Positions 1 to 23,400 of a stretch of 32,000 bases of DNA are shown one piece after another; within the stretch, counting starts at the first letter, position 1; each line of letters begins with the position of its first letter. The translations under genes were made by a program, and so were the position numbers. The notes beneath the pieces are model-generated. The model was not told where the DNA came from and did not search any database. It saw nothing but the letters and a program-made list of their open reading frames with translations. The stretch comes from Halomicronema hongdechloris C2206 (lineage in GTDB: Bacteria > Cyanobacteriota > Cyanobacteriia > Phormidesmidales > Phormidesmidaceae), in NCBI RefSeq assembly GCF_002075285.3, contig NZ_CP021983.2:2100001-2132000 (forward strand), written 5' to 3'.

Positions 1-482
1 GTGTAGATCACATAGCTGAGCTGCTCGAGTGCGGTAACTGGAGCAGGAGGATAGCTGGGGCTCTCAGCAATGCAGTCCCAATCGGTGTCTAGGCACAGAG
101 GGGAAACTGAGGTGGGTAGCACGCCAACGTGAGCTGCTTGCGTTAGCAAACAACGGGCCTGTGCGTCTTCTAGGATATAGGCCAGTCGCTCTTGAGGGTG
201 GCTCGGATCCAGAGGCACATACGCACCCCCCGCTTTCAGCACCCCTAGCAGTGCAATCACCATCGCCACCGAGCGCTCTAGACATACCCCTACTAAGGTT
301 TCAGGTCCCACGCCTTGGCCCTGCAGGTAATGGGCCAATTGATTGGCCCGACGATTCAACTCGTCATAGGTCAGGTGCTGCTGCTCAAACACTAGCGCCA
401 CTGCCTCCGGGCTGCGCTCCACTTGCGCTTCAAATAACTCATGGAGGCAAGCCTCTGAATACTCAGCCTCCGTCTGATTCCA
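1..482 (-). repeat. Copy 1 (cut by the window edge) of the near-identical Gly A-domain coding repeat
   Basis: By eye, 1-392 is identical to 14077-14468. Positions 430-482 match copy 2 (11344-11396) better than copy 3. Confidence 0.9.
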
Positions 483-3099: not shown

Positions 3100-6000
3100 T
3101 TACAGTTCCTGAGCCAGTGCTTGATCGATCTCCTCTGGAGACAAATTCTGAATCTCTTCAACAAACGCCGCGATTTCGTGTTCCGTCTCCAGGTGCGACT
3201 GTTGTTCGCTAATGATGGTGGCTAGTCCTGCAACGGTCGGTGCATCGAACAAAATAGCCTTTAACGGCAGATCGACCTGGAATATCTCTCGTAAGCGAGA
3301 GGTCACCTGTACAGCCAGCAGAGAATGGCCCCCCAGCTCAAAGAAATTATCATGAATACCGACCTGCTCGATGCCAATTAGGGTTTGCCAGATGTGAGCG
3401 ATCGCAACTTCTACATCATTCTGAGGAGCCACATAAGTACTCTGAACATTAGGCCTAGCATGCTGTTTAAGCACCTCTAGGCTTTTCTTAGGTTCAAGTT
3501 TAATCGATTGATCAAATCGTTGCTGCAAGTCTCCAGTAGAAGCGACAACTTGACCAGCATCAACCCTAGCTAATACCCGTAGAAAAGCTTCCCAGACTTC
3601 CCCTGGTGTCATCGCCAATTCAGTTGACAAATCAGGAAGCGATTCACTTTGAGATTCTGTTTTTCGCCCAGTGTGAAACGCTTGACGATTGACGCTTAAC
3701 CAGGGAATCTCTTTTTGCATCTGATTCTGTTGATGGATAATAGCATCCATACTTAGATAAGCTGCAGCATAGTTAGCTAGTCCTAAACCTCCTAAAACAC
3801 AAGACATTGAAGACTGTAAGAGACAGAAGTCTAGTGAAATTCCTTGTAAGGCATTGCATAGACTCGATAAGCTATAAATCTTCTGAAAGTGTTGTTCACA
3901 ATCGGTTAGATCTATTTCTTCAATGGCAGACACTGCTTTTTCGGCTGTAATTTCGGGAAGATATAGAACACCATGAATCTTGCCAAAGTGTTCCAGAACT
4001 TGATGAATTGCTGCCTGAATTTGATCGGTTTGAGTATCATTGAATTCGATCAGAAATACCTCAGCTTTATCCTCTAATACCTGTAACTGACGAATAATAT
4101 CACTCGTCTGATCTGAACCATCATGGGTATCTAACCAAGCTTGCCAACTCTCTCGATGTGGAAGTCCCAGATGACCAATGAATGCAATCTTTGCCTTAGT
4201 TTTTTCTATTAGAGATTGAGCAAAGGACAATCCCATACCATCAACAAGATCACCAACTAGTAAATAAATTCCATTTTGTCTTAATCGTGGGTGAATCTTC
4301 TGTGTAGCAGGTAAACGGATTGGTTCGAAGGTTTGAGTCCAGCGATGATTCCCTCGATAGGCAATCACCGGATGAGTCGAGGATGTTGTGCATTCCGCTA
4401 GTAATTGCTCTATTAGAGTATCAATGTATGCCGACTTAGGTACCTGAATATCAATACTGCGGCAAGTAAGCTGCGGATACTCTTGAGGGATGACTTTACA
4501 TGGTCCTAAGACAGTGGCCTTTGCTGGAATTAAGGATTCTCCTCCAGTGACCTCATATATCTGATCGGTCACAACATATATCTCGAGAGGATTGGTTAGC
4601 TGTTGAGCAATTGCCCGCGTGAGAAATAGGAGACTGTAAAAACCCCGCTTTTGGTAGGGCTGAAATTCTTGAGCTGAAGACGGTAACGGTGTTTCGGATT
4701 CAGCCGTCACTCCCCATAGATGAACGATTTTCTCCGGAATTTGGTCCGAAGCTTTTAGGGCTTGAATTAGAGCGTCGTAACTCTGTTGCTCCTGGGGATT
4801 AATTTCATAGCAGATGGAACTCAATTGCGAAAACTGCTTACCTAAGGAGACCGTAATAACCGAGTGACCCAACTGATTTAAGCGGTTCGCTAGTCCATCT
4901 CCAATACCACAGGTATCTGTCAATAACAACCAGTGATGGGGCTGGTTGACATCTGGTTTGGGTAGCAATGTTCGCTGCCAGGTTGGCAAATAAAACCAAT
5001 CTGCCGGATCAGGTTTGCGCTTTAGTTCGGACAAATGAGGCTGAGAAGATTCTGCCGATCCCTGAGGTGGATCGATCCAATAGCGCTTACGCTCAAAGGG
5101 ATAGGTTGGCAACAGTACCCGTCGCCGCGATTCGTGGGCTGTAAATCCGCTCCAGTTCGCTGGCACCCCTGCTAGCCAGAGGCGACCTAAGGTGGTTAAA
5201 ATCCCTGCTTGATCAGAGGTAGTGTCCTGAGGATGTCGTAACGACGTTAGCACTAAAGCCTCTGTCGTTTGTTGCTTTGCGAACGTACTCAAGGTTCTGC
5301 CAGGACCCACCTCCAGGAAAATGTACTTGGGCTCCTGTAGTAGAGTTGCCATTCCCGCAGCAAACTGCACCGGTTGACGCAGATGATTAGCCCAGTAGCT
5401 CGGATTGGTGGCTTTTGCTGCTGTCAACCAGGTGCCCGTAAGGTTAGAAACTACGGGAATTTGGGGAGGATTGAGGGAGAGGCTCTGCAGCTGCGCCATG
5501 AAAGGCCTGAGTACAGGCTCCATCATGGATGAATGGAAGGCATGGGAGGTATGCAGTCGACGACTCTTAATACCATGGTCTGATAAACGCTGCTGCAACG
5601 CTTCGATGGCGGCGTCAGACCCTGACACCACTGATAAAGCAGGGGCATTGAGACTGGCAAGAGAGAGCTGATCACTGAGCCAAGGATGAATCTCTGCTCC
5701 AGATAGTGGCACCGAGAGCATAGCACCGGCAGGCATTTGCTGCATCAAGCGTCCCCGGGCTGCAACTAGAGTCAGTGCATCTTCTAGGGAAAAGATTCCA
5801 GCTAAACAGGCCGCAACATATTCACCAATGCTGTGGCCGATCATGGCCTCTGGCCGAATTCCCCAACTCATCCACAGTTGAGCCAGAGCATATTCCACGA
5901 CAAATAGAGCCGGTTGCGCGATCGCTGTCTGCCGTAGTTGAGCCGCAGCATCGTCCTTTGGACTATCGCCATAGAGTACCTGGCGTAGATCTAGACCGAG

Positions 6001-7731
6001 ATGGGGGTGCAGTAACTCGCAACATCCATCCACCTGCTCTCGGAACACGGGTTCATGCTCGTAGAGCTCTCGTCCCATGTGGAGATATTGGGCCCCCTGA
6101 CCAGAGAACATAAACACAATTGGCTGATGCTCATCGTCACTGAGCTGGGTCAGAACCGATGGCGACGTGGGATCACCTAAGGCTTGGACTGCTGTCTCAA
6201 GGTTTCGACAGACCACAAGGCGACGATGCTCAAATGGGCGCCGCCCCACCTGAAGGGTATAGGCGACATCTGCCAGGTTCGCATCAGGATGCTGTTGGAG
6301 ATAATCCGCCAACTGAGTTGTGGCAGTTTCTAAAGCCGTGGGTGTTTTGGCTGACAGTGGTAAGATTTGCCAGGGTCGAGACGCCCCGGAGGGAGGGAGA
6401 GCTGGGGCCTCTTCCAACACAACATGGGCATTGGTGCCACCGATGCCAAAGGAACTAATTCCAGCCCGCCGTGGAGTGCCATTGGCTGCCCACGGCTGTA
6501 GGCGAGTATTGACATAGAAGGGACTGGCCTCAAAGTCAATTTGGGGATTTGGTTGCTCAAAATGAAGACTCGGGGGAATCTGTCGATGTTGGAGGGCTAG
6601 AACTGTTTTAATCAACCCAGCCACGCCGGCAGCGGTATCTAAGTGGCCAATGTTGGTTTTCACAGATCCAATGGCGCAGAAGCCACAGCGATCTGTGCCA
6701 GTGCGGAATGCCTGGGTCAGTGCCGCCAGCTCAATGGGGTCGCCAAGGGAAGTCCCAGTACCATGAGCTTCAATGTAGCTGATGGTATCAGGATTGACTT
6801 CAGCTACCGCCAGGGCCTCAGAGATAACAGCGGCTTGACCATCAATGCTGGGGGCAGTGTAGCCGATTTTCTGCGCCCCATCGTTATTAATGGCAGAGCC
6901 TTTGATCACGGCTAAGATGCGATCGCCCTCTGTTAATGCATCCTCCAAACGCTTGAGGGCCACTACTCCAACACCATTGCCAAATACTGTACCTTTGGCA
7001 TTGGCATCAAAGGCTCGACAGTGACCATCGGCAGACGCAATCCCACCCTCTTGATAAAGGTAACCGGTTTTCTGGGGCACTTTGATGGTAACGCCACCTG
7101 CGATCGCTAGATCACTCTCACCGTTAAGCAGACTTTGACAGGCTAAGTGCACAGCAACCAACGAGGTAGAGCAGGCCGTCTGAATCGTTAGGCTCGGCCC
7201 CTTAAGATTTAATTTATAAGAAATGCTAGTAGATAGATAGTCTTTATCATTGCGGGTCAGTACTTCTAGCCCAGCCGCAGATTCTAACCACTGACGGTTG
7301 GGATATAGATTATTGAGAGAATAGGTGCTGAGGCCGGCTCCGGTGAATAGGCCAATTGGACCTGAGTACTGCTCCGGGTCATAGCCGGCTTGCTCAAGTG
7401 CTTCCCAGACACATTCAATTAAGAGGCGTTGCTGGGGATCGGCAATCTCGGCCTCCCTAGGGGTAAAACCAAAGAAATCAGCATCGAACTTGTCAATGTC
7501 ATCCAGCAGAGTTCCTGCTTTGACATAGTGGGGATCGTTGAGCATGTTATCGTCAACCCCTGCAGCCAATAATTCTTCATCTGCAAAGAAAGAGATTGAT
7601 TCAATTCCCCCCTGCAAATTTCGCCACAGTTGCTCAGCATTGTTGGCTCTGGGAAAACAACCTGACATGGCAATGATGGCAATTTCATCTTTCGGAGATA
7701 TATTTTTGTTTATCTGCAAATCAGTTGCCAT
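3100..7731 (-). CDS. Type I PKS module KS-AT(malonyl-type)-KR(degenerate)-T with an acidic C-terminal tail
   Basis: 1543 aa. KS ~6406-7686 (IQTACSTS Cys187, EAHGTGT, NIGHLD). AT ~5287-6123 (GHSIGE Ser634, HAFHS). KR-like region ~3517-5010, including the structural subdomain. Carrier ~3202-3438 (FFELGGHSL Ser1470). Tail: EHEIAAFVEEIQNLSPEEIDQALAQEL. Confidence 0.95.
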   Translation of the reverse strand: MATDLQINKNISPKDEIAIIAMSGCFPRANNAEQLWRNLQGGIESISFFADEELLAAGVDDNMLNDPHYVKAGTLLDDIDKFDADFFGFTPREAEIADPQQRLLIECVWEALEQAGYDPEQYSGPIGLFTGAGLSTYSLNNLYPNRQWLESAAGLEVLTRNDKDYLSTSISYKLNLKGPSLTIQTACSTSLVAVHLACQSLLNGESDLAIAGGVTIKVPQKTGYLYQEGGIASADGHCRAFDANAKGTVFGNGVGVVALKRLEDALTEGDRILAVIKGSAINNDGAQKIGYTAPSIDGQAAVISEALAVAEVNPDTISYIEAHGTGTSLGDPIELAALTQAFRTGTDRCGFCAIGSVKTNIGHLDTAAGVAGLIKTVLALQHRQIPPSLHFEQPNPQIDFEASPFYVNTRLQPWAANGTPRRAGISSFGIGGTNAHVVLEEAPALPPSGASRPWQILPLSAKTPTALETATTQLADYLQQHPDANLADVAYTLQVGRRPFEHRRLVVCRNLETAVQALGDPTSPSVLTQLSDDEHQPIVFMFSGQGAQYLHMGRELYEHEPVFREQVDGCCELLHPHLGLDLRQVLYGDSPKDDAAAQLRQTAIAQPALFVVEYALAQLWMSWGIRPEAMIGHSIGEYVAACLAGIFSLEDALTLVAARGRLMQQMPAGAMLSVPLSGAEIHPWLSDQLSLASLNAPALSVVSGSDAAIEALQQRLSDHGIKSRRLHTSHAFHSSMMEPVLRPFMAQLQSLSLNPPQIPVVSNLTGTWLTAAKATNPSYWANHLRQPVQFAAGMATLLQEPKYIFLEVGPGRTLSTFAKQQTTEALVLTSLRHPQDTTSDQAGILTTLGRLWLAGVPANWSGFTAHESRRRVLLPTYPFERKRYWIDPPQGSAESSQPHLSELKRKPDPADWFYLPTWQRTLLPKPDVNQPHHWLLLTDTCGIGDGLANRLNQLGHSVITVSLGKQFSQLSSICYEINPQEQQSYDALIQALKASDQIPEKIVHLWGVTAESETPLPSSAQEFQPYQKRGFYSLLFLTRAIAQQLTNPLEIYVVTDQIYEVTGGESLIPAKATVLGPCKVIPQEYPQLTCRSIDIQVPKSAYIDTLIEQLLAECTTSSTHPVIAYRGNHRWTQTFEPIRLPATQKIHPRLRQNGIYLLVGDLVDGMGLSFAQSLIEKTKAKIAFIGHLGLPHRESWQAWLDTHDGSDQTSDIIRQLQVLEDKAEVFLIEFNDTQTDQIQAAIHQVLEHFGKIHGVLYLPEITAEKAVSAIEEIDLTDCEQHFQKIYSLSSLCNALQGISLDFCLLQSSMSCVLGGLGLANYAAAYLSMDAIIHQQNQMQKEIPWLSVNRQAFHTGRKTESQSESLPDLSTELAMTPGEVWEAFLRVLARVDAGQVVASTGDLQQRFDQSIKLEPKKSLEVLKQHARPNVQSTYVAPQNDVEVAIAHIWQTLIGIEQVGIHDNFFELGGHSLLAVQVTSRLREIFQVDLPLKAILFDAPTVAGLATIISEQQSHLETEHEIAAFVEEIQNLSPEEIDQALAQEL
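3398..3405. repeat. HIP1 octamer GCGATCGC
   Basis: Exact match read from the sequence. Confidence 0.95.
3517..5010 (-). other. KR-like domain with degenerate cofactor and catalytic motifs (probable KR0)
   Basis: The Rossmann motif reads IYLLVGDLVDGMGLSF where the paralogous PKS (20442-25955) has VYLITGGLGGLGLAIA. The catalytic stretch reads SSMSCVLGGLGLANYAAAYLSMDA versus SSINAITGGLGQVDYSAGNAFLDA, so Tyr is kept and Asn is replaced by Tyr. The core lies at ~3727-4269. Confidence 0.6.
5918..5925. repeat. HIP1 octamer GCGATCGC
   Basis: Exact match read from the sequence. Confidence 0.95.
6919..6926. repeat. HIP1 octamer GCGATCGC
   Basis: Exact match read from the sequence. Confidence 0.95.
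7100..7107. repeat. HIP1 octamer GCGATCGC
   Basis: Exact match read from the sequence. Confidence 0.95.
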
Positions 7732-7801: not shown

Positions 7802-9457
7802 CTACACAACTCTGACAGGCCCTTCTAGTGAAGTTTCTATTTCTAACCTGGCCGCAATTTGAAGTTGATCATCTAAAACAGCGTCGATATCAGTTTCACT
7901 CGTTAGTGGATTTGCCAATACTGCCCTCAGAGCTACAATTGTTACTTCTTGATCAAAATGACGAATGCTTTTAACCGTGCGAGAGATGAAGGTTCGGCCA
8001 ACCTGGCGTTGAACCTTTTGCAGTCGCTCATTGAACCGGCTAATGACGCAGTAATCACTTTTAATTAATTGTTTATGAGTAGCACGTTCTCTAAATGGCT
8101 CCGGAATGTACTGATAAACTAATAAATTAATATCAGGCTTAGCAATTAACTCAAACTCAGGCATGGTGCGAATGCGCTCTGCCATGTATTGGGTCTTGCG
8201 CAGTCCTTCATCGATCAAGAACTCATATCCTTCTACCCCAATCAAGTTCAGCGCTGCATGTAAGAATAGGGCCATACCTGGTCGAGACCCTTCTAAGGAT
8301 CGCTTACCGAGATCCAGGGAGCCATTACGAATGGTGTAACTGGCACTTTTTTCAATTGCTTTGGCCAAGTGAGGATTGCGAAAAAATACCATGACAATCC
8401 CCATGGGTAAGTACATCTGCTTATGACCATCGATAGTTACTGAATCTGCTTGCTCAATGCCTGCTAACTTATGGCGATGCTGGCGAGAAAATAGTAGAGG
8501 ATCTCCCCAAGCTGCATCAACATGGAAATGAGTTTTAGCACTCCGGGCAATAGAGGCAATATCATGCAGTGGATCTATACCACCAGCATCGGTTGTGCCT
8601 GCAATTCCAATTATTGCGAGAATGAGTTTTCGTTGCGATTGACAATGCAAAACTGCCTGATGCAATAACTTTAGATCAATATGATTTCTATCGTCAACCG
8701 GAATTTTGATTAAATTTTGTGAGCCGATTCCCAGTAAATCAGCTGCTTTGTCGAAGGAATAATGCATGAGGTTGGAGCCAATGATGGTAGCTCCTTTGTA
8801 TCCATAGAAACTCAGAGCTGCGGATAAGCCTTCCTGTTCAACCCCAGCAAATTTACCACGAGCTCCCAAGGCATTATTCCGTGCACACCATAGGGCTGTA
8901 ATATTGGCAACTGTTCCTCCCGAGACTAAAATCCCTAATGTGCTCTGGTGGTTATGGATATGTTGTTTATAAAAATCGGTGGAGTATTGATAAATTAATC
9001 GGTGCATGCGCCCTAAAGACTGACGCTCACAGGGACTTAGAGACTTAGCAGTTTCTACCTTGACAGCATTTTGATTAAGCGCCGTTACTAACTTGGCTAA
9101 AGGCCGTACAAAATACGGCAAGGCCGATGTCATGTGACCAATAAATCGTGGTGAGGAAGTATGCACCGCATGGGTAACAATATCTTCAGCTAGGGATGGA
9201 AAATACTGTTCAAACTCGAAAGGCGCTCTCGGCAACTCACTGTCGCTAAATCTCTCCATTAAGTGCTCGAAGTCAATGTCGGTCGTTGATAAATTTTCAT
9301 GTAAAAAAGCTTGGGCCAATACGGCTAGCTTCTCTTCGATCGCTTGCTCAACCAATTGGGATTGAGCAGACGGATTGAATAGCTGCATGATCCTTTTACT
9401 AGCCTGACAAGGCTGAGAAGCTATAAAATTCCTAGAAGGATAGTTCATTCTCATCAA
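7802..9457 (-). CDS. Group II pyridoxal-phosphate-dependent amino-acid decarboxylase (PanP / 2,4-diaminobutyrate / glutamate decarboxylase-like)
   Basis: 551 aa. Motifs: HTSSPRFIGHMTSALP, STLGILVSGGTVANITALWCARN, HVDAAWG, and the PLP-lysine motif SVTIDGHKQMYLPMG (S-x-x5-K pattern). An alternative start is Met24 (ATG top at 9388, MQLFNPSAQ..). Confidence 0.8.
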   Translation of the reverse strand: MMRMNYPSRNFIASQPCQASKRIMQLFNPSAQSQLVEQAIEEKLAVLAQAFLHENLSTTDIDFEHLMERFSDSELPRAPFEFEQYFPSLAEDIVTHAVHTSSPRFIGHMTSALPYFVRPLAKLVTALNQNAVKVETAKSLSPCERQSLGRMHRLIYQYSTDFYKQHIHNHQSTLGILVSGGTVANITALWCARNNALGARGKFAGVEQEGLSAALSFYGYKGATIIGSNLMHYSFDKAADLLGIGSQNLIKIPVDDRNHIDLKLLHQAVLHCQSQRKLILAIIGIAGTTDAGGIDPLHDIASIARSAKTHFHVDAAWGDPLLFSRQHRHKLAGIEQADSVTIDGHKQMYLPMGIVMVFFRNPHLAKAIEKSASYTIRNGSLDLGKRSLEGSRPGMALFLHAALNLIGVEGYEFLIDEGLRKTQYMAERIRTMPEFELIAKPDINLLVYQYIPEPFRERATHKQLIKSDYCVISRFNERLQKVQRQVGRTFISRTVKSIRHFDQEVTIVALRAVLANPLTSETDIDAVLDDQLQIAARLEIETSLEGPVRVV

Positions 9458-16089: not shown

Positions 16090-17163
16090 TCAGGATTTGA
16101 TTTTTACATATTCAGGAAATGATTGAATTTGTGTAAGTTCATTTTCTAAAATTTGCAGATCCTTATTCTTTTCATTCTTTTCAATTTCCTTGAACCCCGC
16201 AAACTTATAAGACACATACATCATTCTATTGCGTTCGTTTGAAACAAACTCAGCACGCAAACGGACATGATTCCCTTTAGCCAAACTCATAATATAATTC
16301 AACATAATTGTGCCAACGCCTCTAGACATAACCCGACAAGACATCAGCAAAAGCTTTATCGTCCACACGCCTTCTAGGCATTCCAGCAGTGCTAACCCAA
16401 TTTTTCCGTAACTCCCGTACTTATCATCCAAACTTGCAATTAGCAATTTATGTTTGTCTGATTGCCGAAAATGATTGAGTTCATCATAGGAGTACGTATA
16501 GCCAGTTGTATTCAATTGATTGGTTCTAACCGTTAATTCTTCTGCTCTTTGTAAATCTTCTTCCTGGGCAGAAGAGATAGTGAAAGTCATATTAAGAGTA
16601 GCTAAAAATTCTTCTTGAGTGCCAATAAATTCTTTTTCTGCCTCGTTCCTCTCTATATCACTAAGATACATCAGCCTTCTAAATTTTGAATCCTCTGTAG
16701 TAAAACGAGGATTCATTTCTGGTTTATCTAGTAAGTCATTGAGTTCAGAGGCATTAACACAGAAAACTTCAGGAAGCGAAAAATTAACTTCTTCAAGCTC
16801 AAACATCTGATCATCAATAAAAGCAAATGCATCAATGCCAAGATTGAGTGACTTGGCAATTGCTTGAATAGAACTCGATTTAGAGTTCCAATTGATTTGG
16901 GGATAGAGAAAATACTCATGCAGCTCAAACTCTTTGAGTTGCTGCATAGCCTGAGTATAGTCATTCTTACTGGCAACAGACTGTAAGATACCTCGACTAT
17001 CTAATGTCTTAATAACATCGACTGATTTGTTTCGTAGATAAACACGCTTATCCTCTAATAAGATTCCATTCCAAAGTGTGTTGTCTAAATCCCAGACGAC
17101 ACATTTGATCATCTTTTTATCGGCTTGTTTTTGATTTAAAATTTCAGCTTTTATATGAGTCAT
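16090..17163 (-). CDS. FkbH-like HAD-superfamily (IIIC) glyceryl-ACP-forming enzyme
   Basis: 357 aa. HAD motif I: KCVVWDLDNTLWNG. C-terminal GNAT-like half with LLLMSCRVMSRGVG (the conserved SCR cysteine of FkbH-type enzymes). Starts 4 nt after the upstream acyl-CoA dehydrogenase stop. Confidence 0.8.
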   Translation of the reverse strand: MTHIKAEILNQKQADKKMIKCVVWDLDNTLWNGILLEDKRVYLRNKSVDVIKTLDSRGILQSVASKNDYTQAMQQLKEFELHEYFLYPQINWNSKSSSIQAIAKSLNLGIDAFAFIDDQMFELEEVNFSLPEVFCVNASELNDLLDKPEMNPRFTTEDSKFRRLMYLSDIERNEAEKEFIGTQEEFLATLNMTFTISSAQEEDLQRAEELTVRTNQLNTTGYTYSYDELNHFRQSDKHKLLIASLDDKYGSYGKIGLALLECLEGVWTIKLLLMSCRVMSRGVGTIMLNYIMSLAKGNHVRLRAEFVSNERNRMMYVSYKFAGFKEIEKNEKNKDLQILENELTQIQSFPEYVKIKS

Positions 17164-17167
17164 TTTC

Positions 17168-18352
17168 TCATGTCCTTGCCAGTAAATCTTGAAAATTAAC
17201 AGTAGAAGGGGAGGGTGACGTATATTCCTGATAACCGTAATCAGCGATAGTTATCTGTTGTATTTGTGTACTACCTTCAATGATTTCCATAATTTTCGCA
17301 TCTCGCAAACATCTAGCGACAGCATATTCATTGGTGCAGCCATTAGCACCGTGGATTTGTACAGCATCATTTGCAGCTTGAGTTGCTATTTTAGAGGCAA
17401 AATATTTAGCAATCGAAGTCTCTGCTATTGAACCTGGATCGCCAATTTCTTTGAGATAGCCAGCTTGATAGCATAGTAATCTCGCTGCTTTGACGTTGGT
17501 GAGCATCTCAGTCACTAGTTGCCGAATCAATTGGTGTTCTCTTAGATAGACACCGAACTGCTTGCGTTCACTCGTATACCGAATGCAAGCTTCTAGACAA
17601 GCTTGGGCAATTCCTACGCATCCCCAGGCAACACTATATCGACCACAATCTAGGGCAGTGGAAGCGACGTGGGAGAAACCAAAGCCCTGCCTGCACACAA
17701 GATTTTCTTGGAGAATCTGACAATCATTGAAGTGTAGCTCGGCTAACATTGAAGCCCTAACCCCCAACATTCCAGAAATGGGTTCAATCGAGAGTCCGGG
17801 GCTATTTTTCTCAACCAAAAAAGCAGAGGGCTTACCATCACATTGAGCAAATACTAGAAAAATATCGGCAATTTGTCCATAGGTAATCCATTTTTTTTGT
17901 CCATTCAAGAGATAAGCGTTTCCAGAAAGCGTCGCTGTTGTCTCTACACTTTTGGCATCGCTTCCCACATTGGGTTCACTGAGAGCAAAGGCAGCAATTA
18001 CTTCACCGGATGCTAGTTTAGGAAGCCAATAGGCTTTTTGAGACTGACTGCTCCACTTGAGCAGAGCTAGAGAAACCATGCTGTGAACAGTGAGCAAACT
18101 CCGCAGCGAAGAACACCCCCGTCCAATTTCTTCCGATAGGAGTCCGTAGGTAATCATATCCATGCCACTGCCACCGCTATCTTTGGGTAATAGGGCACCC
18201 AGATATCCCTGCTGAGCGAATTTTTTGATCAGTTCTGCAGGAGTGCGCTCTTGGCGATCCCATTGATTGGCATAGGGAACGATCGCTTCATCGACGAAGA
18301 CTCTAAATGCTGCCCTATTTTCTTTCTGTTGAGTTGTTAATTCTAACTTCAT
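17168..18352 (-). CDS. Acyl-CoA dehydrogenase family protein (FkbI/ZmaE-like)
   Basis: 394 aa. ACAD-like throughout: FAQQGYLGALLPK..GGSGMD, AFALSEPNVGSDA, KKWITYG, QFGVYLREHQLI, and the C-terminal IMEIIEGSTQIQQ (catalytic-Glu region). Confidence 0.88.
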   Translation of the reverse strand: MKLELTTQQKENRAAFRVFVDEAIVPYANQWDRQERTPAELIKKFAQQGYLGALLPKDSGGSGMDMITYGLLSEEIGRGCSSLRSLLTVHSMVSLALLKWSSQSQKAYWLPKLASGEVIAAFALSEPNVGSDAKSVETTATLSGNAYLLNGQKKWITYGQIADIFLVFAQCDGKPSAFLVEKNSPGLSIEPISGMLGVRASMLAELHFNDCQILQENLVCRQGFGFSHVASTALDCGRYSVAWGCVGIAQACLEACIRYTSERKQFGVYLREHQLIRQLVTEMLTNVKAARLLCYQAGYLKEIGDPGSIAETSIAKYFASKIATQAANDAVQIHGANGCTNEYAVARCLRDAKIMEIIEGSTQIQQITIADYGYQEYTSPSPSTVNFQDLLART

Positions 18353-18355
18353 CCA

Positions 18356-19285
18356 TCAACCTTGATAAGAGTAATGATTTAAAAATAGGTATCGATCAAT
18401 AATTTTCTTTTTGACTAAATCAATTAGCTCAGAATTCAACTGGACATTGAATCGACTTTTGTTGGGTTTGTTATAAACAATACTGGCACAATCCTTTAAA
18501 TAATCCTCAGAAGCAGGCATTGACAAAAAATTACAGAGTTGTTTTAAGCAGTACTTGGGATTTTCAATAAATGATTCATTAGTGATTTCCAAAATCTTAT
18601 CTAAGTCTATTCTGGTTTTCAGTTCAGCAACTGCTTTACAAACTAAAGAATATAATTCAATCGCTATTTCTATATCAACTTCTTCTCTTTTTGTGAACGT
18701 ATCAATAACATCATAAGGATTTCTAATGACGTGAATAAAATGAATGTTTGTCCCCATCTTTTTATAAAGAATGTCTAGCAAACCCGGATAACTTTTTAAT
18801 ATTGCCGTGGTTGGAGCAGCCTCTTTATCTCCAATCACCTTTATCTCTCGAAATCGATCTTGCTATTGATTTGGAACGGCATAGGAATACCCAGCTACAG
18901 TTTTACCTGCTTGAGCATGAACTTGAGCCCCTTTAAGAATAAGGTAATAAATTTGCCCTTTGCTATAGCTGTGTTTATTAATATATTTAACCGCACCTAA
19001 TTCATCAGAGATCACCATGTCGGGATGGGTATCTAAACAGGCTCCCACTAAACTATGGCCTGTTCTGCCACAACCAATAAAAATACAATAATTTTCTATT
19101 TTATCAAAGTATTTTCTATGCTTCCAAGCTCCATACATAGACCTTAGATATGTATAAATATTGGTCTGGGTGTCTATATGCTGAGAGTCAGCAAGAAATC
19201 GAAAATAAAAATCTTGGGTTTGCGAAGATGTTGCTTCGAGTAAGTGATTATTTGCTTGCATTTTTTCATTAATGAATTGATTCAT
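18356..19285 (-). pseudogene. Sulfotransferase-family gene interrupted by a single in-frame TAG (track ORFs 18863-19285 and 18356-18838 are its two halves)
   Basis: The N-half carries a PAPS 5'-phosphosulfate-binding-loop-like motif, IFIGCGRTGHSLVGACLDTHPDM. The C-half carries a 3'-phosphate-binding-like motif, IHFIHVIRNPYDVIDTF. I checked codon by codon that both ORFs are in the same frame: ..YAVPNQ-TAG-QDRFREIKVIGDKEAAP... The downstream 'start' is only a GTG. The joined length of ~309 aa is typical for the family. Confidence 0.7.
18863..18865 (-). other. In-frame amber codon (TAG on the minus strand; 'cta' on plus) inside the sulfotransferase reading frame
   Basis: Read directly from the sequence. 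Flanking codons are CAA(Q) at 18866-18868 and CAA(Q) at 18860-18862. Confidence 0.9.
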
Positions 19286-19299
19286 ATAGTGCTAGCCAT

Positions 19300-19545
19300 C
19301 TATGTCAGAATTGATTTTTTTCGTTCCAGCAGAGAAGCCATCGCACTGATCGTTCTGAAGTTATCCAATTCGAGGTCTTCGTTTTCAACAGTAACTTGAA
19401 ACTCTTGTTCGATAAATAAAACCAGTTGCATTGCGAACATCGAGTTCACAAATCCTACAGCAAAAATATCCTCATCATCCTGCAGGTCATGGTTACCAAA
19501 AAATTGCGAGAGAAATGTTTTCAGTTTAGCCTTAAAATCTTGCAT
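19300..19545 (-). CDS. Free-standing acyl carrier protein (FkbJ/ZmaD-like)
   Basis: 81 aa and acidic. Helix-II-type motif GFVNSMFAMQLVLFIEQEF, with Ser35 as the putative phosphopantetheinyl site. Sits between the two dehydrogenase genes and the FkbH gene. Confidence 0.7.
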   Translation of the reverse strand: MQDFKAKLKTFLSQFFGNHDLQDDEDIFAVGFVNSMFAMQLVLFIEQEFQVTVENEDLELDNFRTISAMASLLERKKSILT

Positions 19546-19565
19546 CTTTTCAAACCTTCAATCCT

Positions 19566-20420
19566 TCAACTGTAAGCGTAAAAACCCTTGCCACTTTTCC
19601 TTCCATATAGCCCAGCATCAACCATCCTTTTGAGCAAAGGGCATGGTCTATATTTGCTGTCATTAAAACTTTCGTACAAAACTTCAATTGAGAAGAGAAT
19701 CGTATCTAACCCAATCAAGTCAGCGGTCTCAAGTGGTCCCATTTTGTGACCAAAACAGGTTTTGAAGATTCTATCAACTTCTTCAGCTGAAGCGACTTGA
19801 TCGTGCAGAAGAAAAATCGCTTCATTAATAGTCAACATAAGGACGCGATTGGAAACAAATCCTGGCGAATCATTGACAACAATGCCCTCTTTTCCCATTT
19901 GAGACAACAAGTTTTTAGCTGTCTCAATGGTTTCTTCGGAAGTATGATATCCGCGAATCATTTCAACGGTTGGCTTCAGAGGAACGGGGTTCATAAAATG
20001 CATGCCCAGCACTTTAGAAGCCCGCTTGGTTACAGAAGCAATGCGAGTAATCGGAATCGCTGATGTATTGGCGGCAAAGACAACACTCTCTGGACAAATT
20101 GCCTCAAGCTGCGGGTAGACTTCCTTTTTAATACTCCACTTTTCCGTGACATTCTCAATCACAAATTCTACCCCATCTAGCAACTTGTAGTTTGTAGAAA
20201 ACTGGATGCGATTCAGAACAACGTCTGGATTTTCCGGTTTCTCTTTTTTATTAAAGAAACCTTGAAAGCGAATATTATTTTTAATTTCTTGGTTGGCCTT
20301 CTCCAGAATTTCTTCGGAAACATCGATGAGAATTACCTGATGACCGGTTTGGGCTAGGTTTTGTGCTATCCCGACTCCCATCACGCCCGCTCCCACAACA
20401 CCAACGGTTTGAATCTTCAT
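19566..20420 (-). CDS. 3-hydroxyacyl-CoA (3-hydroxybutyryl-CoA) dehydrogenase family protein (FkbK/ZmaG-like)
   Basis: 284 aa. N-terminal NAD Rossmann motif VGVVGAGVMGVGIAQNLAQTGHQVILIDV. Also ANTSAIPIT, HFMNPVP, GFVSNRV, and the C-terminal dimerisation region GPLETADLIGLD. Confidence 0.9.
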   Translation of the reverse strand: MKIQTVGVVGAGVMGVGIAQNLAQTGHQVILIDVSEEILEKANQEIKNNIRFQGFFNKKEKPENPDVVLNRIQFSTNYKLLDGVEFVIENVTEKWSIKKEVYPQLEAICPESVVFAANTSAIPITRIASVTKRASKVLGMHFMNPVPLKPTVEMIRGYHTSEETIETAKNLLSQMGKEGIVVNDSPGFVSNRVLMLTINEAIFLLHDQVASAEEVDRIFKTCFGHKMGPLETADLIGLDTILFSIEVLYESFNDSKYRPCPLLKRMVDAGLYGRKSGKGFYAYS

Positions 20421-20441
20421 TCTCCCTCCAGGATTTAGTAT

Positions 20442-23400
20442 TTAGCGAGCTGCATAAACGTTATAGATATTAGAGTTTTCGTATAAGTCTTCCTGTTCTG
20501 CTACAACGTTATACTTTTGCGTTTTGAGTAGGTTCGTTATCTGTACTAGTCGCCCTTCTGTGTCATGGATTTCTAGAACAATCTGCTTAATCTTTTTCCA
20601 GTCCTTATCTTTAATACCTTGGAGAACGTCTAGTTCACTCTTCTGCACGTCGATTTTGAGTAAATCGATGTTTTCAATATTGTTTTCGCTAATCACATCA
20701 GAGAGTGTTTTTAGTTGGCAAGTAAAACTTTGGCTCTTAAACCGCTCTTCTAACAATTCATCGGAGTATTGCATGACCTGTTCCATGCCAGCCATTCCGG
20801 TTTGGAGTTGGTTGAGCATAATGGCTTTTAAGACTTCCTGTTCCTCTCCGCGATCGCCATAGAAAGAAGACATCCCAGAACTCTGAGGGTAGAACGTAAA
20901 TGTTGCAGTTTTTGTCTCGTTCGACAAACCGACATTGAACAACTTTACATTCACCTCATGTAGCGCTGTATTGAAACTTAAAATTTCAAACAGAGGAGGG
21001 GCTGGTTCAAAGGCATAAATTATGGGATTTTTACAGTGTTGATAGGCGAACAGCGTAAACAGGCCGATGTTAGCTCCTACATCAAAAATACAGTCACCCT
21101 CATTCAACGCAATTCCATGCTTGAGATAAACTTTATTTTCAAAGATGTCTTGGTAGAAATAATCAGCCTCAGTTTTAGTTTGGTAGGCAATTTCTAAATG
21201 ATTGGGTAGCTTGTAGCGTCGCTGGCTGACTACTCTGGGAGTTTGTTCTGATGATTGGGGAAGAACGGATACGAGTTCTTCGGCTTCGTTTTCGGTGAGT
21301 TCTTCTATCTCTCTGATGAGAATTTCTTCAATAATCAAGGCTAACTCTGCCACAGAGGGTGCTTCAAAAATGAATCGCAGGGATAGTTCTACTTGGAATT
21401 CCTGACGCAGTCGGGAAAGGAGCTGAATTCCGATCAGGGAGTTTCCTCCCACATCAAAGAAGTTGTCATGGATGCCTATCCGATCAACTCCCAGCAACTC
21501 TTGATAGAGTTCAGCAATTTTGCACTCAGTTTCATTTCTAGGCGCAACATAGGCAGTTTTTAAATTCGGTCGCAGTTGTGTTGATTGAGGATGACGCTTC
21601 TCAAGATTTTCGAGTAAACTGGCGGCTGCTAAAACTTCGTTCTCCTCAAATAGGGTTTGCAGGTTTCGCGTTGACACAACAACTTGAGGCTGTTGACTGG
21701 ACAAAATGTGCCATAAGGCAGCTATCCCCTTTTTAAATTCGATACCGTATCGTTCTCGCATCTGCCTGAGTCCAGCTTGGATTTCTGGAGAAACGGCAGC
21801 TTGCAAGTTGTGCCCTGGTCCAGGATCCCAGTTGATGGAAACGGTATGAATGTTGCGCCGATAAAAATTGTAGTGGGCGAAGGCATCGAGAAAAGCGTTG
21901 CCGGCGGAGTAATCGACTTGACCCAAGCCCCCCGTAATTGCATTTATGGAAGAAAATAAAACCAAAAAATCTAGCTGTGTGTCCTTCAATACAGCATCTA
22001 AAACCATGGCTCCCTTGACTTTGAAATTGAGAATACTTGCCGCTGATTCGGTCGTTTTGAGCTGAATAATGCTGGCACCTATTGGTGGTGTCGTTTGAAT
22101 GATGCCATGAATTTCGCCAAAGCGATCGCGCACCCGATCGACCATCCCTTGCATCTGTTCGAGGTGGGTAACATCGGCTTTAATAACCAGAACCTCTGCA
22201 CCGAATTCCTCCATCGCCTGAACTTTCTTTATCTTGATACTGACTGGGTTGTCTTCTTCATGGTTAGATAACCACTGCTCCCATTCCGTTTTTGGCGGCA
22301 AACCCGAACGTTCAATAATCACCAATTTGGCTTGCACTGTCTTTGCCAAATGTTGCGCGATCGCAAGTCCAAGTCCTCCTAATCCACCCGTAATCAGGTA
22401 GACTCCACCTTGCCGTAACTTAGCAGTGCGCAAGGTTTTCCCTGCTACGGGTAAGGGTTCAAAGCACTGCACCCATCGACGATTGCCGCGATAGGCAATG
22501 ACTTTATCAGCAGTTGGTGCCGCAAGTTCGCTAAAGAGTTGGTCTATCAGTTGCTGCCATTGCCTAGTACCCGATTGAGGTAGCGTAATATCGATGCTGC
22601 GGCAGGTGATGTTTGAATATTCCTGGGGAATGACTCTACAGGGTCCTAAAAGGGTTGCCTTTTCTGGACATATGTCGTCAGTGTCGGTTAACTCCTGTAA
22701 GTTGTTAGATATGATATCAATGTGTAGGGGATCATCAATACCCTGTTCTCCTAATGCCTGCGCTAGAAACAGCAGACTGTAGAAACTAAGTGATTGGATT
22801 TGTTCCCAACTCTCAAGTCCAGGCTCTGCCTGCTCGTTCGCTGTTATAGTCCACAAATGAACAATGCTTTTGGGAATTTTATTAGAGAAATGAAGTTCGC
22901 AGAGCAAGGTGTCATAGTCATCCCTTTTCCCAGGATTAATAGTGTATTCCTGTTGATTGAGTTTCCTAAATTCTTCCCCAATCCCGACAATGATGATATC
23001 TTGACATTCCTTTTCTAGTTGTTTCACAAGCTGGGAACCCACTCCACAGCGATCAACCAACACTAACCAGGGTTGCTTGCGATTACCCCACTTCCCTGAC
23101 TCAAACGGTACCGGTGGCGCGGCGCGTTTCCAAGAAGGAATATGGAACCATTCGGTAATGTCTAACTTTTGTTGGGAGTTTGATGCTCCTGAATTGACAG
23201 GATTGCCAGGTTTTTGAGGTTCAATCCAATAACGCTGGCGCTCAAAGGGATAGGTCGGTAAGGGAAGGCGATGACGGCGTTCATTGATATAAAAACCGGA
23301 CCAATCAATCAGTATGCCTGCAAGCCATAGCTGCCCTAATGTGTTGAGCAAGAAGGCTACATCTGACTGCCGGTCATAGGTATAGCGCAGGGAAGGTAGC

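What the first reader, a model, noticed from the sequence alone, without database searches (positions are those of the whole stretch)
18356..19285. Sulfotransferase nested in the extender-unit cassette is split by a single in-frame TAG
The two small ORFs in the track are one reading frame: ..GYSYAVPNQ [TAG 18863-18865] QDRFREIKVIGDKEAAPTT... Together they give a ~309-aa protein with both PAPS-binding signatures (GCGRTGHSLVG 5'-PSB-like; VIRNPYDVI 3'-PB-like). One explanation is a recent nonsense mutation; TGG(Trp)->TAG is a single transition, and a Trp would fit the NQ-W-Q context, but that is inference. A second is a sequencing error. A third is a leaky or read-through stop. If the enzyme is functional, its location in the FkbG position suggests sulfation of a glyceryl-/hydroxymalonyl-ACP or of the KR-generated hydroxyl. 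In the established CurM/OLS ST-domain precedent, sulfate is also used as a leaving group. If it is a true pseudogene, this strain may make a desulfo congener while relatives make a sulfated one.
Basis: partly seen in the sequence, partly recalled or inferred. Interest (0 to 1): 0.65.

Follow-up and report, generated by a model that had tools for sequence, protein, structure and literature searches.

The report
Broken sulfotransferase gene in cyanobacterial cluster
A single sulfotransferase gene inside a cyanobacterial lipopeptide/polyketide gene cluster has been knocked out by one stop codon and is starting to decay, while its neighbours stay intact; this is an ordinary young pseudogene, though it shows how such clusters swap tailoring steps.

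Summary
Window 19285..18356 (minus strand) is one 309-codon frame broken by a single TAG at 18863-18865. The rejoined protein is a PAPS-type sulfotransferase (ST).

All 119 homologues listed but one short one are single proteins of about 240-330 aa. The closest, at 88/85/80% identity, sit in the same FkbK-ACP-ST-FkbI-FkbH order. They have TGG (Trp) where the window has TAG.

It is very probably a true, young pseudogene, not an error or recoding.
- The window copy also changes two residues that are invariant in 69 homologues (G143D, W283L), plus A86T.
- Its own-branch nonsynonymous/synonymous ratio is raised (about 0.47, against 0.05-0.18 for its neighbours).
- TAG ends three neighbouring genes normally.
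- The source matches the published Halomicronema hongdechloris C2206 genome (72x hybrid coverage), where the halves are annotated as XM38_019890 and XM38_019880.

The "FkbG slot" reading is not supported. This ST clade travels with a FAAL-NRPS plus a KS-AT-KR-ACP module even where no FkbH cassette exists. Its nearest characterised relatives are the CurM and olefin-synthase ST domains. The likeliest substrate is therefore the KR-made hydroxyl.

The ST lies inside a ~2.8-kb recombination tract. Only this cluster's PKS carries a fused FkbM-type methyltransferase, so sulfation may have become dispensable here (inferred).

The parts
18356..19285 (-). Sulfotransferase pseudogene: one frame of 309 codons. 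The conserved start is probably Met9 at 19261. It is annotated in the source genome as two genes, matched by order to XM38_019890 (N half) and XM38_019880 (C half).
   Evidence: Translation. Pfam Sulfotransfer_3 across both halves. Full-length homologues. Annotation order. Start-codon comparison.
18863..18865 (-). Premature TAG at codon 141. It replaces a near-invariant Trp (TGG in the closest orthologues).
18857..18859 (-). GAT (Asp143) where all 69 homologues have Gly (GGT in the closest orthologues). It is a radical change 3 nt downstream of the TAG.
18437..18439 (-). TTG (Leu283) where all 69 homologues have Trp (TGG in the closest orthologues).
19028..19030 (-). ACC (Thr86) in the LDAHP motif, where at least 90% of homologues have Ala (GCC in the closest orthologues).
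   Evidence: The motif is shared with TPST.
19052..19075 (-). 5'-phosphosulfate-binding loop GCGRTGHS, in the N-terminal fragment.
   Evidence: Aligns to PRSGST/PRSGTT of CurM ST, OLS ST and TPST.
18710..18724 (-). 3'-phosphate-binding motif RNPYD, in the C-terminal fragment.
   Evidence: Aligns to RHPY of CurM ST and OLS ST.
17700..20457 (-). Tract of about 2.8 kb (FkbK, ACP, ST, 5' half of FkbI) that is 86-96% nt identical to Coleofasciculaceae-type loci. Both flanks are much more diverged, so this is a recombination block with the ST in the middle. Its ends are approximate (200-nt windows).
   Evidence: Sliding identity. Per-gene dS and identity.
19566..20420 (-). FkbK-like 3-hydroxyacyl-CoA/ACP dehydrogenase of the hydroxymalonyl-ACP cassette. 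It is intact.
   Evidence: Pfam 3HCDH_N/3HCDH. Own-branch omega 0.07.
19300..19545 (-). Stand-alone ACP (FkbJ-like). It is intact and ends in TAG.
17168..18352 (-). FkbI-like acyl-CoA/ACP dehydrogenase. It is intact, and its ATG lies 3 nt after the ST stop codon.
16090..17163 (-). FkbH-family glyceryl-ACP loader. It is intact.
   Evidence: TIGR01686, 280.9 bits against a cut-off of 146.65.
20442..25955 (-). PKS module KS-AT-KR-ACP with a fused C-terminal FkbM-family methyltransferase domain (about residues 1590-1837, window roughly 20442-21190). This is the module the ST clade always accompanies. Among the loci examined the MT domain is unique to the window.
   Evidence: Pfam. TIGR01444. Relatives lack it.
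25956..31271 (-). FAAL-ACP-C-A-PCP initiation protein, the other constant neighbour of this ST clade.
   Evidence: Pfam. Synteny.

Best explanation
What it is. This is a genuine, evolutionarily young pseudogene of a stand-alone PAPS-dependent O-sulfotransferase. The fold is TPST / CurM-ST-like (Pfam Sulfotransfer_3). The gene sits in a hybrid FAAL-NRPS/PKS cluster of what is almost certainly Halomicronema hongdechloris C2206.

How it broke (shown). A G->A transition turned the near-invariant Trp141 codon TGG into TAG. Translation then stops after 140 residues. That fragment keeps the 5'-phosphosulfate loop but lacks the central VIGDK strand, the 3'-phosphate motif RNPYD and the whole C-terminal half.

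Effect on the enzyme (inferred). The fragment cannot bind PAPS or catalyse transfer.

Already under relaxed constraint (shown). Two residues invariant across the family (G143D, W283L) and one near-invariant residue (A86T) have also changed. The four other cassette genes (FkbK, ACP, FkbI, FkbH) remain intact and under purifying selection.

History (inferred). The ST sits in the middle of a ~2.8-kb tract recently exchanged with a Coleofasciculaceae-type cluster, so it probably arrived or was refreshed as a passenger between the homologous FkbK and FkbI genes. In this cluster the partner PKS module has a fused FkbM-type O-methyltransferase domain that no relative has. That domain may cap the hydroxyl the ST would otherwise sulfate, making the ST dispensable.

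Function in intact relatives (inferred). The enzyme most likely sulfates a hydroxyl on the N-acyl-aminoacyl-ketide made by the FAAL-NRPS and the KS-AT-KR-ACP module. The KR-generated beta-hydroxyl is the common denominator. The hydroxymalonyl-ACP extender unit is a less likely target.
For: One frame, one TAG.

ST identity:
- Pfam Sulfotransfer_3.
- AF2 model of the 88% orthologue with pLDDT 92. Foldseek top hits are TPST2, CurM ST and OLS ST, all at probability 1.0.
- Profile against PDB: CurM ST 6.5e-12, OLS ST 2e-10.

Orthologues are single genes with TGG at the site.

Decay signature:
- Leave-one-out over 70 sequences: the window is the only one with two changes at otherwise invariant columns, and 65 have none.
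- Unique changes on the window's own branch in the ST are 15 nonsynonymous to 8 synonymous (omega about 0.47). Its four cassette neighbours together have 66 to 115 (Fisher p = 0.012). Other ST lineages give 0.06-0.33.

No recoding: TAG terminates three of the other eleven ORFs listed (ACP, the two-module NRPS, the decarboxylase).

Low prior for a substitution error:
- The window's proteins lie on one NCBI contig of 5,577,845 bp. That equals the published H. hongdechloris genome size.
- The assembly had 17x 454, 14x PacBio and 41.5x Solexa coverage.
- The published gene list has the same gene order, with the ST as two genes.
- The TAG is not in a homopolymer.

ST tied to FAAL-NRPS plus KS-AT-KR-ACP, not to the cassette.

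Recombination tract.

MT domain unique to the window.
Against: - No reads or second assembly of the strain could be retrieved, so the TAG itself is not independently verified.
- The omega of about 0.47 rests on 23 changes. It differs only marginally from other ST lineages (p = 0.10).
- There are no frameshifts or deletions inside the gene, so decay is slight.
- The link between gain of the MT domain and loss of the ST is a correlation with n = 1.
- The substrate assignment rests on synteny and distant homology only (14-16% identity to CurM ST and TPST).
- The proteome study detected none of the cluster's proteins, so it says nothing about expression of the ST.
Confidence: 0.82

Rival explanations
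1. Sequencing or assembly error. The real genome has TGG and the gene is intact and functional.
For: No reads or independent assembly were available to check. The region is AT-rich (ST 33% GC against a 54.6% genome), so coverage could be locally atypical. The assembly was built from older chemistries.
Against: The lesion is a substitution outside any homopolymer. My understanding is that 454 and PacBio errors are mostly indels. Average coverage was 72x, including 41.5x Solexa. Even with TGG restored, the gene would still carry G143D and W283L at columns invariant in 69 homologues, plus A86T. An error would have to have happened four times, always at conserved sites.
Confidence: 0.07
2. The gene still works. 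Either the TAG is read through at low level, or it functions as a two-piece enzyme: the 140-aa N fragment plus a C fragment re-initiated at GTG 18838, 24 nt downstream of the stop.
For: A GTG lies in frame shortly after the stop, and re-initiation over such distances is known in bacteria (my knowledge). The two PAPS-binding motifs are each intact on their own fragment. Pairwise dN/dS against relatives is still well below 1, at 0.18-0.21.
Against: The split falls inside the most conserved coil of the family (YSYAVPNQWQGRF) and just before a core beta-strand. Re-initiation at the GTG would delete eight residues, including conserved F145 and R146. G143D and W283L hit invariant residues. No homologue is split. 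No Shine-Dalgarno-like sequence stands out before the GTG. The low pairwise dN/dS mostly reflects history before inactivation.
Confidence: 0.05
3. TAG is recoded in this organism or at this site (suppressor tRNA or a non-standard amino acid).
For: None found.
Against: TAG is the ordinary stop of the ACP, the two-module NRPS and the decarboxylase genes in the same window. Each ends at the position expected from homologues. No tRNA is present in the window. Orthologues encode Trp here.
Confidence: 0.01
4. One reading: the intact enzyme occupies the FkbG role and makes a sulfated extender (2-O-sulfo-hydroxymalonyl-ACP) or sulfated glyceryl-ACP.
For: In the window and the three closest lineages (L001, L005, L008) the ST sits between the cassette ACP and FkbI, where FkbG-type genes can sit. 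Sulfated glycerate units made by FkbH plus ST domains are known in suomilides and dysinosins.
Against: Orthologous STs at 43-55% identity occur in clusters with no FkbH/I/K genes in the stretches examined (L009, L012, L014, L015). In L010 the ST lies outside the ACP-FkbI junction. The cassette genes stay under purifying selection after loss of the ST. The suomilide and dysinosin STs are domains of an NRPS loading module with no FkbK or FkbI.
Confidence: 0.12

Closest known systems
CurM ST and olefin-synthase (OLS) ST domains (PDB 4gbm, 4gox)
   Same: They are the nearest characterised sequences to the family profile (E = 6.5e-12 and 2e-10) and among the top structural matches. They share the PRSG-type 5'-PSB loop and the R-x-P-Y 3'-PB motif. 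Like them, this ST clade always accompanies a KS-AT-KR-ACP module, and OLS is also FAAL-initiated.
   Different: This ST is a stand-alone gene, not a domain between ACP and TE. There is no CurM-type thioesterase in the window or beside the relatives' STs. The PKS product is passed on to NRPS modules rather than released as a terminal olefin. Identity is only about 14-16%. The window's copy is also dead.
Tyrosylprotein sulfotransferases TPST1/2 (PDB 3ap3, 5wri)
   Same: TPST2 is the best Foldseek hit (E = 6e-8, TM about 0.5). The motif FIG..PRSGxxL...LDAHP is shared.
   Different: TPSTs are eukaryotic Golgi enzymes acting on protein tyrosines. Nothing here suggests a peptide-Tyr substrate.
FkbH-PCP-OMT-ST loading modules for sulfated (methyl)glycerate (suomilide/banyaside Bsl, dysinosin DysB)
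   Same: These are cyanobacterial. An FkbH-type loader and a sulfotransferase occur in one pathway.
   Different: There the ST is a domain of the NRPS and acts on a glyceryl starter, and no FkbK or FkbI is present. Here the full FkbH/I/K/ACP oxidation cassette is present and the ST clade also exists without any FkbH.
Methoxymalonyl-/hydroxymalonyl-ACP cassettes (FkbG-H-I-J-K of the FK506/FK520 type)
   Same: FkbH (TIGR01686 above cut-off), an acyl-CoA-dehydrogenase-type FkbI, a 3-hydroxyacyl-CoA-dehydrogenase-type FkbK and a discrete ACP are all present and intact.
   Different: There is no FkbG O-methyltransferase gene. An ST gene lies between ACP and FkbI instead, and an FkbM-family MT is fused to the PKS.
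Cyanochelin-type beta-hydroxy-aspartate lipopeptide siderophore clusters
   Same: The relatives that carry the intact ST combine a FAAL, a PKS, TauD-type hydroxylases and C-A-PCP-C modules. In L009 there is also an AMIN-domain TonB receptor.
   Different: The cyanochelin papers I could read mention no ST, FkbH or sulfate. The window's own cluster has no TauD. It continues with an Asp-1-decarboxylase, a second PKS and a MupA-type monooxygenase.

Membership tests
PAPS-dependent sulfotransferase superfamily (Pfam Sulfotransfer_3; TPST / CurM-ST-like) | Profile match above the curated threshold | tested here: met
   PF13469: 31.2 bits against a cut-off of 27, on the rejoined protein, residues 70-258.
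PAPS-dependent sulfotransferase superfamily (Pfam Sulfotransfer_3; TPST / CurM-ST-like) | 5'-phosphosulfate-binding loop and 3'-phosphate-binding motif | tested here: met
   GCGRTGHS and RNPYD are present. They align to the corresponding motifs of CurM ST, OLS ST and TPST1.
PAPS-dependent sulfotransferase superfamily (Pfam Sulfotransfer_3; TPST / CurM-ST-like) | Sulfotransferase fold | tested here: met
   Tested on the 88% orthologue, not on the window protein. AF2 pLDDT is 92.1. Foldseek probability is 1.0 to TPST2, CurM ST and OLS ST.
PAPS-dependent sulfotransferase superfamily (Pfam Sulfotransfer_3; TPST / CurM-ST-like) | Uninterrupted reading frame with the family's invariant residues (needed to be an active member) | tested here: not met
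   TAG at codon 141. G143D and W283L fall at columns invariant in 69 homologues.
PAPS-dependent sulfotransferase superfamily (Pfam Sulfotransfer_3; TPST / CurM-ST-like) | PAPS-dependent sulfuryl transfer activity | not testable with these tools
   Needs an enzyme assay.
CurM/OLS-type 'activating' ST | ST embedded as a domain between ACP and a dedicated TE in a terminal KS-AT-KR-ACP-ST-TE module | tested here: not met
   It is a stand-alone gene. No thioesterase domain was found in the window's megasynthases or in the relatives' PKS proteins.
CurM/OLS-type 'activating' ST | Close sequence relationship to CurM ST and OLS ST | tested here: inconclusive
   They are the best PDB hits to the family profile (6.5e-12, 2e-10). 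Only the C-terminal half aligns well, and identity is about 14-16%.
CurM/OLS-type 'activating' ST | Sulfates the ACP-bound beta-hydroxyl made by the module's KR, with the sulfate then leaving | not testable with these tools
   Only synteny with KS-AT-KR-ACP modules supports this.
FkbG-equivalent tailoring enzyme of the (m)ethoxy/hydroxymalonyl-ACP cassette | Obligate co-occurrence with FkbH/I/J/K | tested here: not met
   ST orthologues occur in L009, L012, L014 and L015, and no FkbH, FkbI or FkbK is detectable in the up to 21 kb examined around them.
FkbG-equivalent tailoring enzyme of the (m)ethoxy/hydroxymalonyl-ACP cassette | Fixed position within the cassette | tested here: not met
   It lies between ACP and FkbI in the window, L001, L005 and L008. 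In L010 it lies upstream of FkbK.
Hydroxymalonyl-ACP biosynthesis cassette (context of the finding) | FkbH-family loader, FkbI-type and FkbK-type dehydrogenases, and a discrete ACP | tested here: met
   TIGR01686: 280.9 bits against a cut-off of 146.65. All three acyl-CoA dehydrogenase domains are present, plus 3HCDH_N/3HCDH and PP-binding.
FkbH-ST loading modules (suomilide / dysinosin type) | ST and FkbH as domains of one NRPS loading module, with no FkbK or FkbI | tested here: not met
   All are separate genes here, and FkbK and FkbI are present.

The most novel reading that the evidence does not exclude
Intact members of this ST clade may be trans-acting partners of a FAAL-NRPS plus KS-AT-KR-ACP head-group module. 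They would work like CurM and OLS STs by sulfating the KR-made beta-hydroxyl, but without a TE. The sulfate would then either stay, giving a still-undescribed class of O-sulfated cyanobacterial lipopeptides or siderophores, or leave, acting as a dehydratase surrogate. The Halomicronema cluster would record a live swap of that step for O-methylation by a newly fused FkbM domain, with the ST left to decay.
Probability: 0.25. Interest if true: 0.55.

Novelty: new member of a known kind. Interest (0 to 1): 0.3.

Why it matters
On its own this is an annotation correction. Two small genes in a published genome, matched by gene order to XM38_019880 and XM38_019890, are one dead sulfotransferase. The product of this cluster should therefore not be predicted to carry a sulfate.

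More usefully, the comparison shows three things.
- This ST clade is a companion of the FAAL-NRPS / KS-AT-KR head-group module, not of the FkbH extender-unit cassette. That redirects substrate predictions for the intact relatives, which look like siderophore clusters.
- The hydroxymalonyl cassette stays under selection without the ST.
- Tailoring steps in these clusters are exchanged by short recombination tracts and domain fusions. The window gives a dated snapshot: an ST arriving as a passenger, an MT fused to the PKS, and the ST decaying.

Tried and rejected
Independent copies of the strain's sequence (all failed):
- The genome-contig scan found nothing closer than 50% aa identity.
- An exact-pattern scan of metagenome contigs around the TAG, allowing TAG or TGG, found 0 hits.
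- The protein-pattern scan of metagenome contigs found nothing above 45%.
- An exact look-up of the window's FkbI found no contig on record.

The TAG could therefore not be verified against reads or a second assembly.

Literature:
- Searching for the genome size as a number failed for syntax and then found nothing. A first organism search was off target. The genome paper was then found.
- The cyanochelin lead: the relatives look like beta-OH-Asp siderophore clusters. The cyanochelin B and C papers mention no ST, FkbH or sulfate. The original cyanochelin paper is not held. No known product could be assigned.
- Searches for ST plus FkbH or FAAL gave only the sulfated-glycerate loading modules and OLS.

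Other checks:
- A suspected second FkbK-like locus in the genome (fadD_1) is ordinary beta-oxidation, fadA/fadE. Rejected.
- Rfam and tRNA scans of the window found nothing.
- Promoter and terminator scans around the gene were no better than shuffles.
- The shorter ACP-ST spacer in the window was considered as a second lesion. I rejected it as evidence because spacer length varies among intact relatives: 128, about 100 and about 84 nt.
- The low GC of the ST was considered as a sign of decay. I rejected it because all orthologues are 33-37% GC.
- The MT domain has no PDB sequence match.
Full report
**1. The observation**

On the minus strand, 19285..18356 translates as one frame of 309 sense codons. 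There is a single internal stop after ...GYSYAVPNQ. It is TAG, read as CTA on the + strand at 18863-18865.

The mechanical ORF list shows the two fragments: 18863..19285 (140 aa) and 18356..18838 (160 aa, nominal GTG start).

The rejoined protein matches Pfam Sulfotransfer_3 across the junction (residues 70-258, 31.2 bits against a cut-off of 27). GCGRTGHS lies at 19052-19075 and RNPYD at 18710-18724. These align with the PAPS 5'-phosphosulfate and 3'-phosphate motifs of CurM ST, OLS ST and TPST.

One correction applies. Comparison of the upstream region with three orthologous loci shows that the conserved start is the second Met (MQ..., 19261).

**2. Where the window comes from**

Both fragments and their neighbours are NCBI/UniRef proteins on a single contig of 5,577,845 bp. 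That is exactly the published size of the Halomicronema hongdechloris C2206 chromosome. The genome has 54.6% GC and was assembled from 17x 454, 14x PacBio and 41.5x Solexa reads (PMC6416890).

The paper's gene table lists this order:
- XM38_019810: NRPS
- XM38_019820: luxA
- XM38_019830: not seen in the passages read
- XM38_019840: ddc
- XM38_019850: NRPS
- XM38_019860: hypothetical protein
- XM38_019870: acyl-CoA dehydrogenase
- XM38_019880: "Sulfotransferase family protein"
- XM38_019890: "hypothetical protein"
- XM38_019900: dltC
- XM38_019910: 3-hydroxyacyl-CoA dehydrogenase
- XM38_019920: PKS
- XM38_019930: peptide synthetase

This is the window's gene order. The public annotation therefore already splits the gene in two without calling it a pseudogene. 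None of these proteins was detected in that study's proteome, so it says nothing about the ST.

**3. Orthologues**

A search of 5.8 billion proteins found 195 homologues, and 120 are listed. All but one short one (181 aa) are single proteins of about 240-330 aa. The closest are 88%, 85% and 80% identical over the whole joined frame.

W occupies the TAG column in 17 of 18 aligned sequences, with Y in one. It is W in at least 90% of a 69-sequence alignment. In the loci carrying the 88% and 80% orthologues the codon is TGG, so the lesion is one G->A transition.

These orthologues lie in the same order as the window, FkbK-ACP-ST-FkbI-FkbH, after a FAAL-ACP-C-A-PCP gene and a KS-AT-KR-ACP gene. No orthologue is encoded as two genes.

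**4. Error, recoding, or real pseudogene?**

(a) TAG is the normal stop of three other genes in the window: the ACP, the two-module NRPS and the decarboxylase. No tRNA is encoded in the window. Recoding is not credible.

(b) The lesion is a substitution outside any homopolymer, in an assembly averaging 72x coverage.

(c) The copy carries further damage.
- GGT->GAT gives G143D, 3 nt downstream of the TAG.
- TGG->TTG gives W283L.
- GCC->ACC gives A86T in the LDAHP motif.
- G143 and W283 are invariant in 69 homologues spanning 36-89% identity.
- In a leave-one-out count over 70 sequences, the window is the only one with two hits at otherwise invariant columns. Sixty-five have none, and four have one, two of them conservative exchanges (D->E, V->I).

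(d) I counted changes unique to one terminal branch among four close loci.

| Gene / lineage | Nonsynonymous : synonymous | Omega proxy |
|---|---|---|
| Window ST | 15 : 8 | ~0.47 |
| Window FkbK, ACP, FkbI, FkbH | 66 : 115 combined | 0.05-0.18 per gene |
| ST in the three intact lineages | 32 : 40 combined | 0.06-0.33 per lineage |

Fisher's test for the window ST against its own neighbours gives p = 0.012. Against the other ST lineages it gives only p = 0.10. Pairwise dN/dS is still 0.18-0.21, and there are no indels. Inactivation is therefore recent.

Taken together, a real, young pseudogene is by far the best reading. I could not verify the bases against reads or a second assembly.

**5. 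What the truncated product lacks**

The AF2 model of the 88% orthologue (pLDDT 92.1) shows a strand followed by the GCGRTGHS loop. A long conserved coil (YSYAVPNQWQGRF) comes next, then the core strand VIGDK, then the strand leading into RNPYD, and finally a helical C-terminal half.

The stop falls in the conserved coil. The 140-aa fragment lacks two core strands, the 3'-PB motif and everything after them.

Re-initiation at the in-frame GTG (18838) would drop eight conserved residues. It would also leave G143D upstream and W283L downstream. A functional split enzyme is therefore unlikely, though not excluded.

The ST stop and the FkbI start are 3 nt apart, here and in relatives. The early stop may therefore reduce translational coupling into FkbI (inference).

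**6. What kind of sulfotransferase it is**

Foldseek's best PDB matches are TPST2, CurM ST, TPST1 and OLS ST, all at probability 1.0 with TM about 0.5 and 14-16% identity.

The family profile hits CurM ST at 6.5e-12 and OLS ST at 2e-10, then the TPSTs at about 1e-8.

It is a distant, stand-alone relative of the PKS "activating" ST domains. It fails their architectural definition: no ACP-ST-TE fusion, and no TE in the window or in the relatives' PKS proteins.

**7. Is it an "FkbG replacement"?**

The cassette is real and intact. FkbH scores 280.9 bits on TIGR01686 against a cut-off of 146.65. FkbI-type and FkbK-type dehydrogenases and a discrete ACP are present.

The ST clade, however, is not tied to the cassette.

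| Locus | ST identity to window | Arrangement |
|---|---|---|
| L010 | 54% | PKS, TauD, ST, FkbK, ACP, FkbI, FkbH |
| L009 | 54% | No FkbH, FkbI or FkbK; ST lies 12 nt upstream of a KS-AT-KR-ACP gene |
| L012 | 45% | No cassette |
| L014 | 50% | No cassette detected |
| L015 | 43% | No cassette detected |

All of these have a FAAL-type initiation gene and a KS-AT(-KR)-ACP gene next to the ST. The constant partner is the FAAL-NRPS plus KS-AT-KR-ACP head-group module.

With CurM and OLS STs as the nearest characterised relatives, the KR-made beta-hydroxyl is the most economical substrate. This is an inference. A TauD-made hydroxyl is less likely, because the small TauD seen in L009, L010 and L012 is absent from the stretches examined in L001, L005 and the window.

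The known FkbH-plus-ST systems (suomilide, dysinosin) use domains in an NRPS loading module and have no FkbK or FkbI. They are a different arrangement.

**8. Why it may have died here**

Sliding-window identity shows that window ~20457 to ~17700 (FkbK, ACP, ST and the 5' half of FkbI) is 86-96% identical to the L001, L005 and L008 loci. Upstream, the 3' end of the PKS aligns at only about 50%. Downstream, the 3' half of FkbI and FkbH fall to 65-80%.

Per-gene dS against L001 agrees: FkbK 0.42, ACP 0.39, ST 0.31, FkbI 0.76, FkbH 2.0, PKS 1.1.

The ST therefore sits in the middle of a ~2.8-kb recombination tract bounded by genes that every cassette shares. It may have been carried in as a passenger.

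The window's PKS1 is also the only one with a fused C-terminal FkbM-family methyltransferase (PF05050; TIGR01444 at 111.8 bits against 37.7). The relatives' PKS proteins stop after the ACP or, in L012, add a C domain. No fetched locus has a tblastn match to the MT.

O-methylation may have taken over, or may block, the position the ST served. That is a hypothesis from a single case. The rest of the cassette remains under purifying selection, so the cluster as a whole does not look dead.

**9. Verdict**

The FkbG-slot functional inference is not supported.

This is an ordinary young pseudogene and a small annotation correction. Its modest wider value is for understanding how tailoring steps are exchanged in cyanobacterial FAAL-NRPS/PKS clusters, and for predicting the substrate of an uncharacterised stand-alone ST clade.

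Noticed in passing
window 20442-25955 (PKS1, AT domain at about residues 533-862); also L001, L005, L010 against L009, L012 and window 3100-7731: The AT domains of PKS modules in clusters that carry the FkbH cassette have GYSIGE at the active-site serine motif plus an insertion of about 28 aa upstream. ATs in cassette-less relatives and in the window's second PKS have the canonical GHSIGE. All keep the HAFH motif, which is usually read as malonyl-specific. This may mark ATs that accept ACP-linked hydroxymalonate.
   Followed up: partly
window about 20442-21190 (C-terminal ~250 aa of PKS1): An FkbM-family methyltransferase domain is fused after the ACP of a KS-AT-KR-ACP module. It is absent from every related locus fetched and has no PDB sequence match.
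   Followed up: partly
window 1-32000: There is strong compositional mosaicism at gene and domain scale. The ST is 33% GC and FkbH 36%. The NRPS A1-PCP1-C2-A2 region is 57-59% and the FAAL 56%. The genome mean is 54.6%. This suggests the cluster was assembled from sources with different base composition.
   Followed up: partly
window 7802-9457 (-): The PLP-dependent decarboxylase is annotated 'ddc, L-2,4-diaminobutyrate decarboxylase' in the source. It scores above the cut-off for PanP, pyridoxal-dependent aspartate 1-decarboxylase (616.6 against 606.1 bits). That suggests an in-cluster beta-alanine supply.
   Followed up: partly
window 1-1949 (-) and 1988-3058 (-): A MupA/Atu3671-family luciferase-like monooxygenase (488 bits) is followed by the start of another NRPS gene. 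That gene begins with what reads like a condensation-domain N-terminus and runs off the window's low end, so the cluster continues beyond the window.
   Followed up: no
L009 1096-15537: This is a compact relative: FAAL-ACP-C-A-PCP, TauD, a glycosyltransferase, a gene matching PF13748 (ABC_membrane_3), the ST, then KS-AT-KR-ACP. No thioesterase is visible. It lies next to PepSY and an AMIN-domain TonB-dependent receptor. It may make a small sulfated or glycosylated lipo-amino-acid siderophore with an unclear release mechanism.
   Followed up: no
window 19262-19299, against L001 9873-10033, L005 and L008: The ACP-ST spacer is 84-128 nt in intact relatives and contains a shared element (..CATCCGTGATG..). 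In the window only 38 nt remain before the conserved start and the element is gone. Spacer length varies too much among relatives to call this a lesion.
   Followed up: partly
window 16090-31271 (whole cluster): In the published TMT proteome of the source strain (white and far-red light), every gene seen in the table passages from XM38_019800 to XM38_019970 has zero identified peptides. The cluster was silent or below detection under those conditions.
   Followed up: no
window 20442-31271 against L010 and L001: The window's FAAL and KS-AT regions are closer to the L010-type cluster (86% and 82% aa) than to L001 (72% and 75%). Its FkbK-ACP-ST block is much closer to L001 (93/90/88%) than to L010 (80/73/55%). 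Different parts of the cluster have different nearest relatives.
   Followed up: partly
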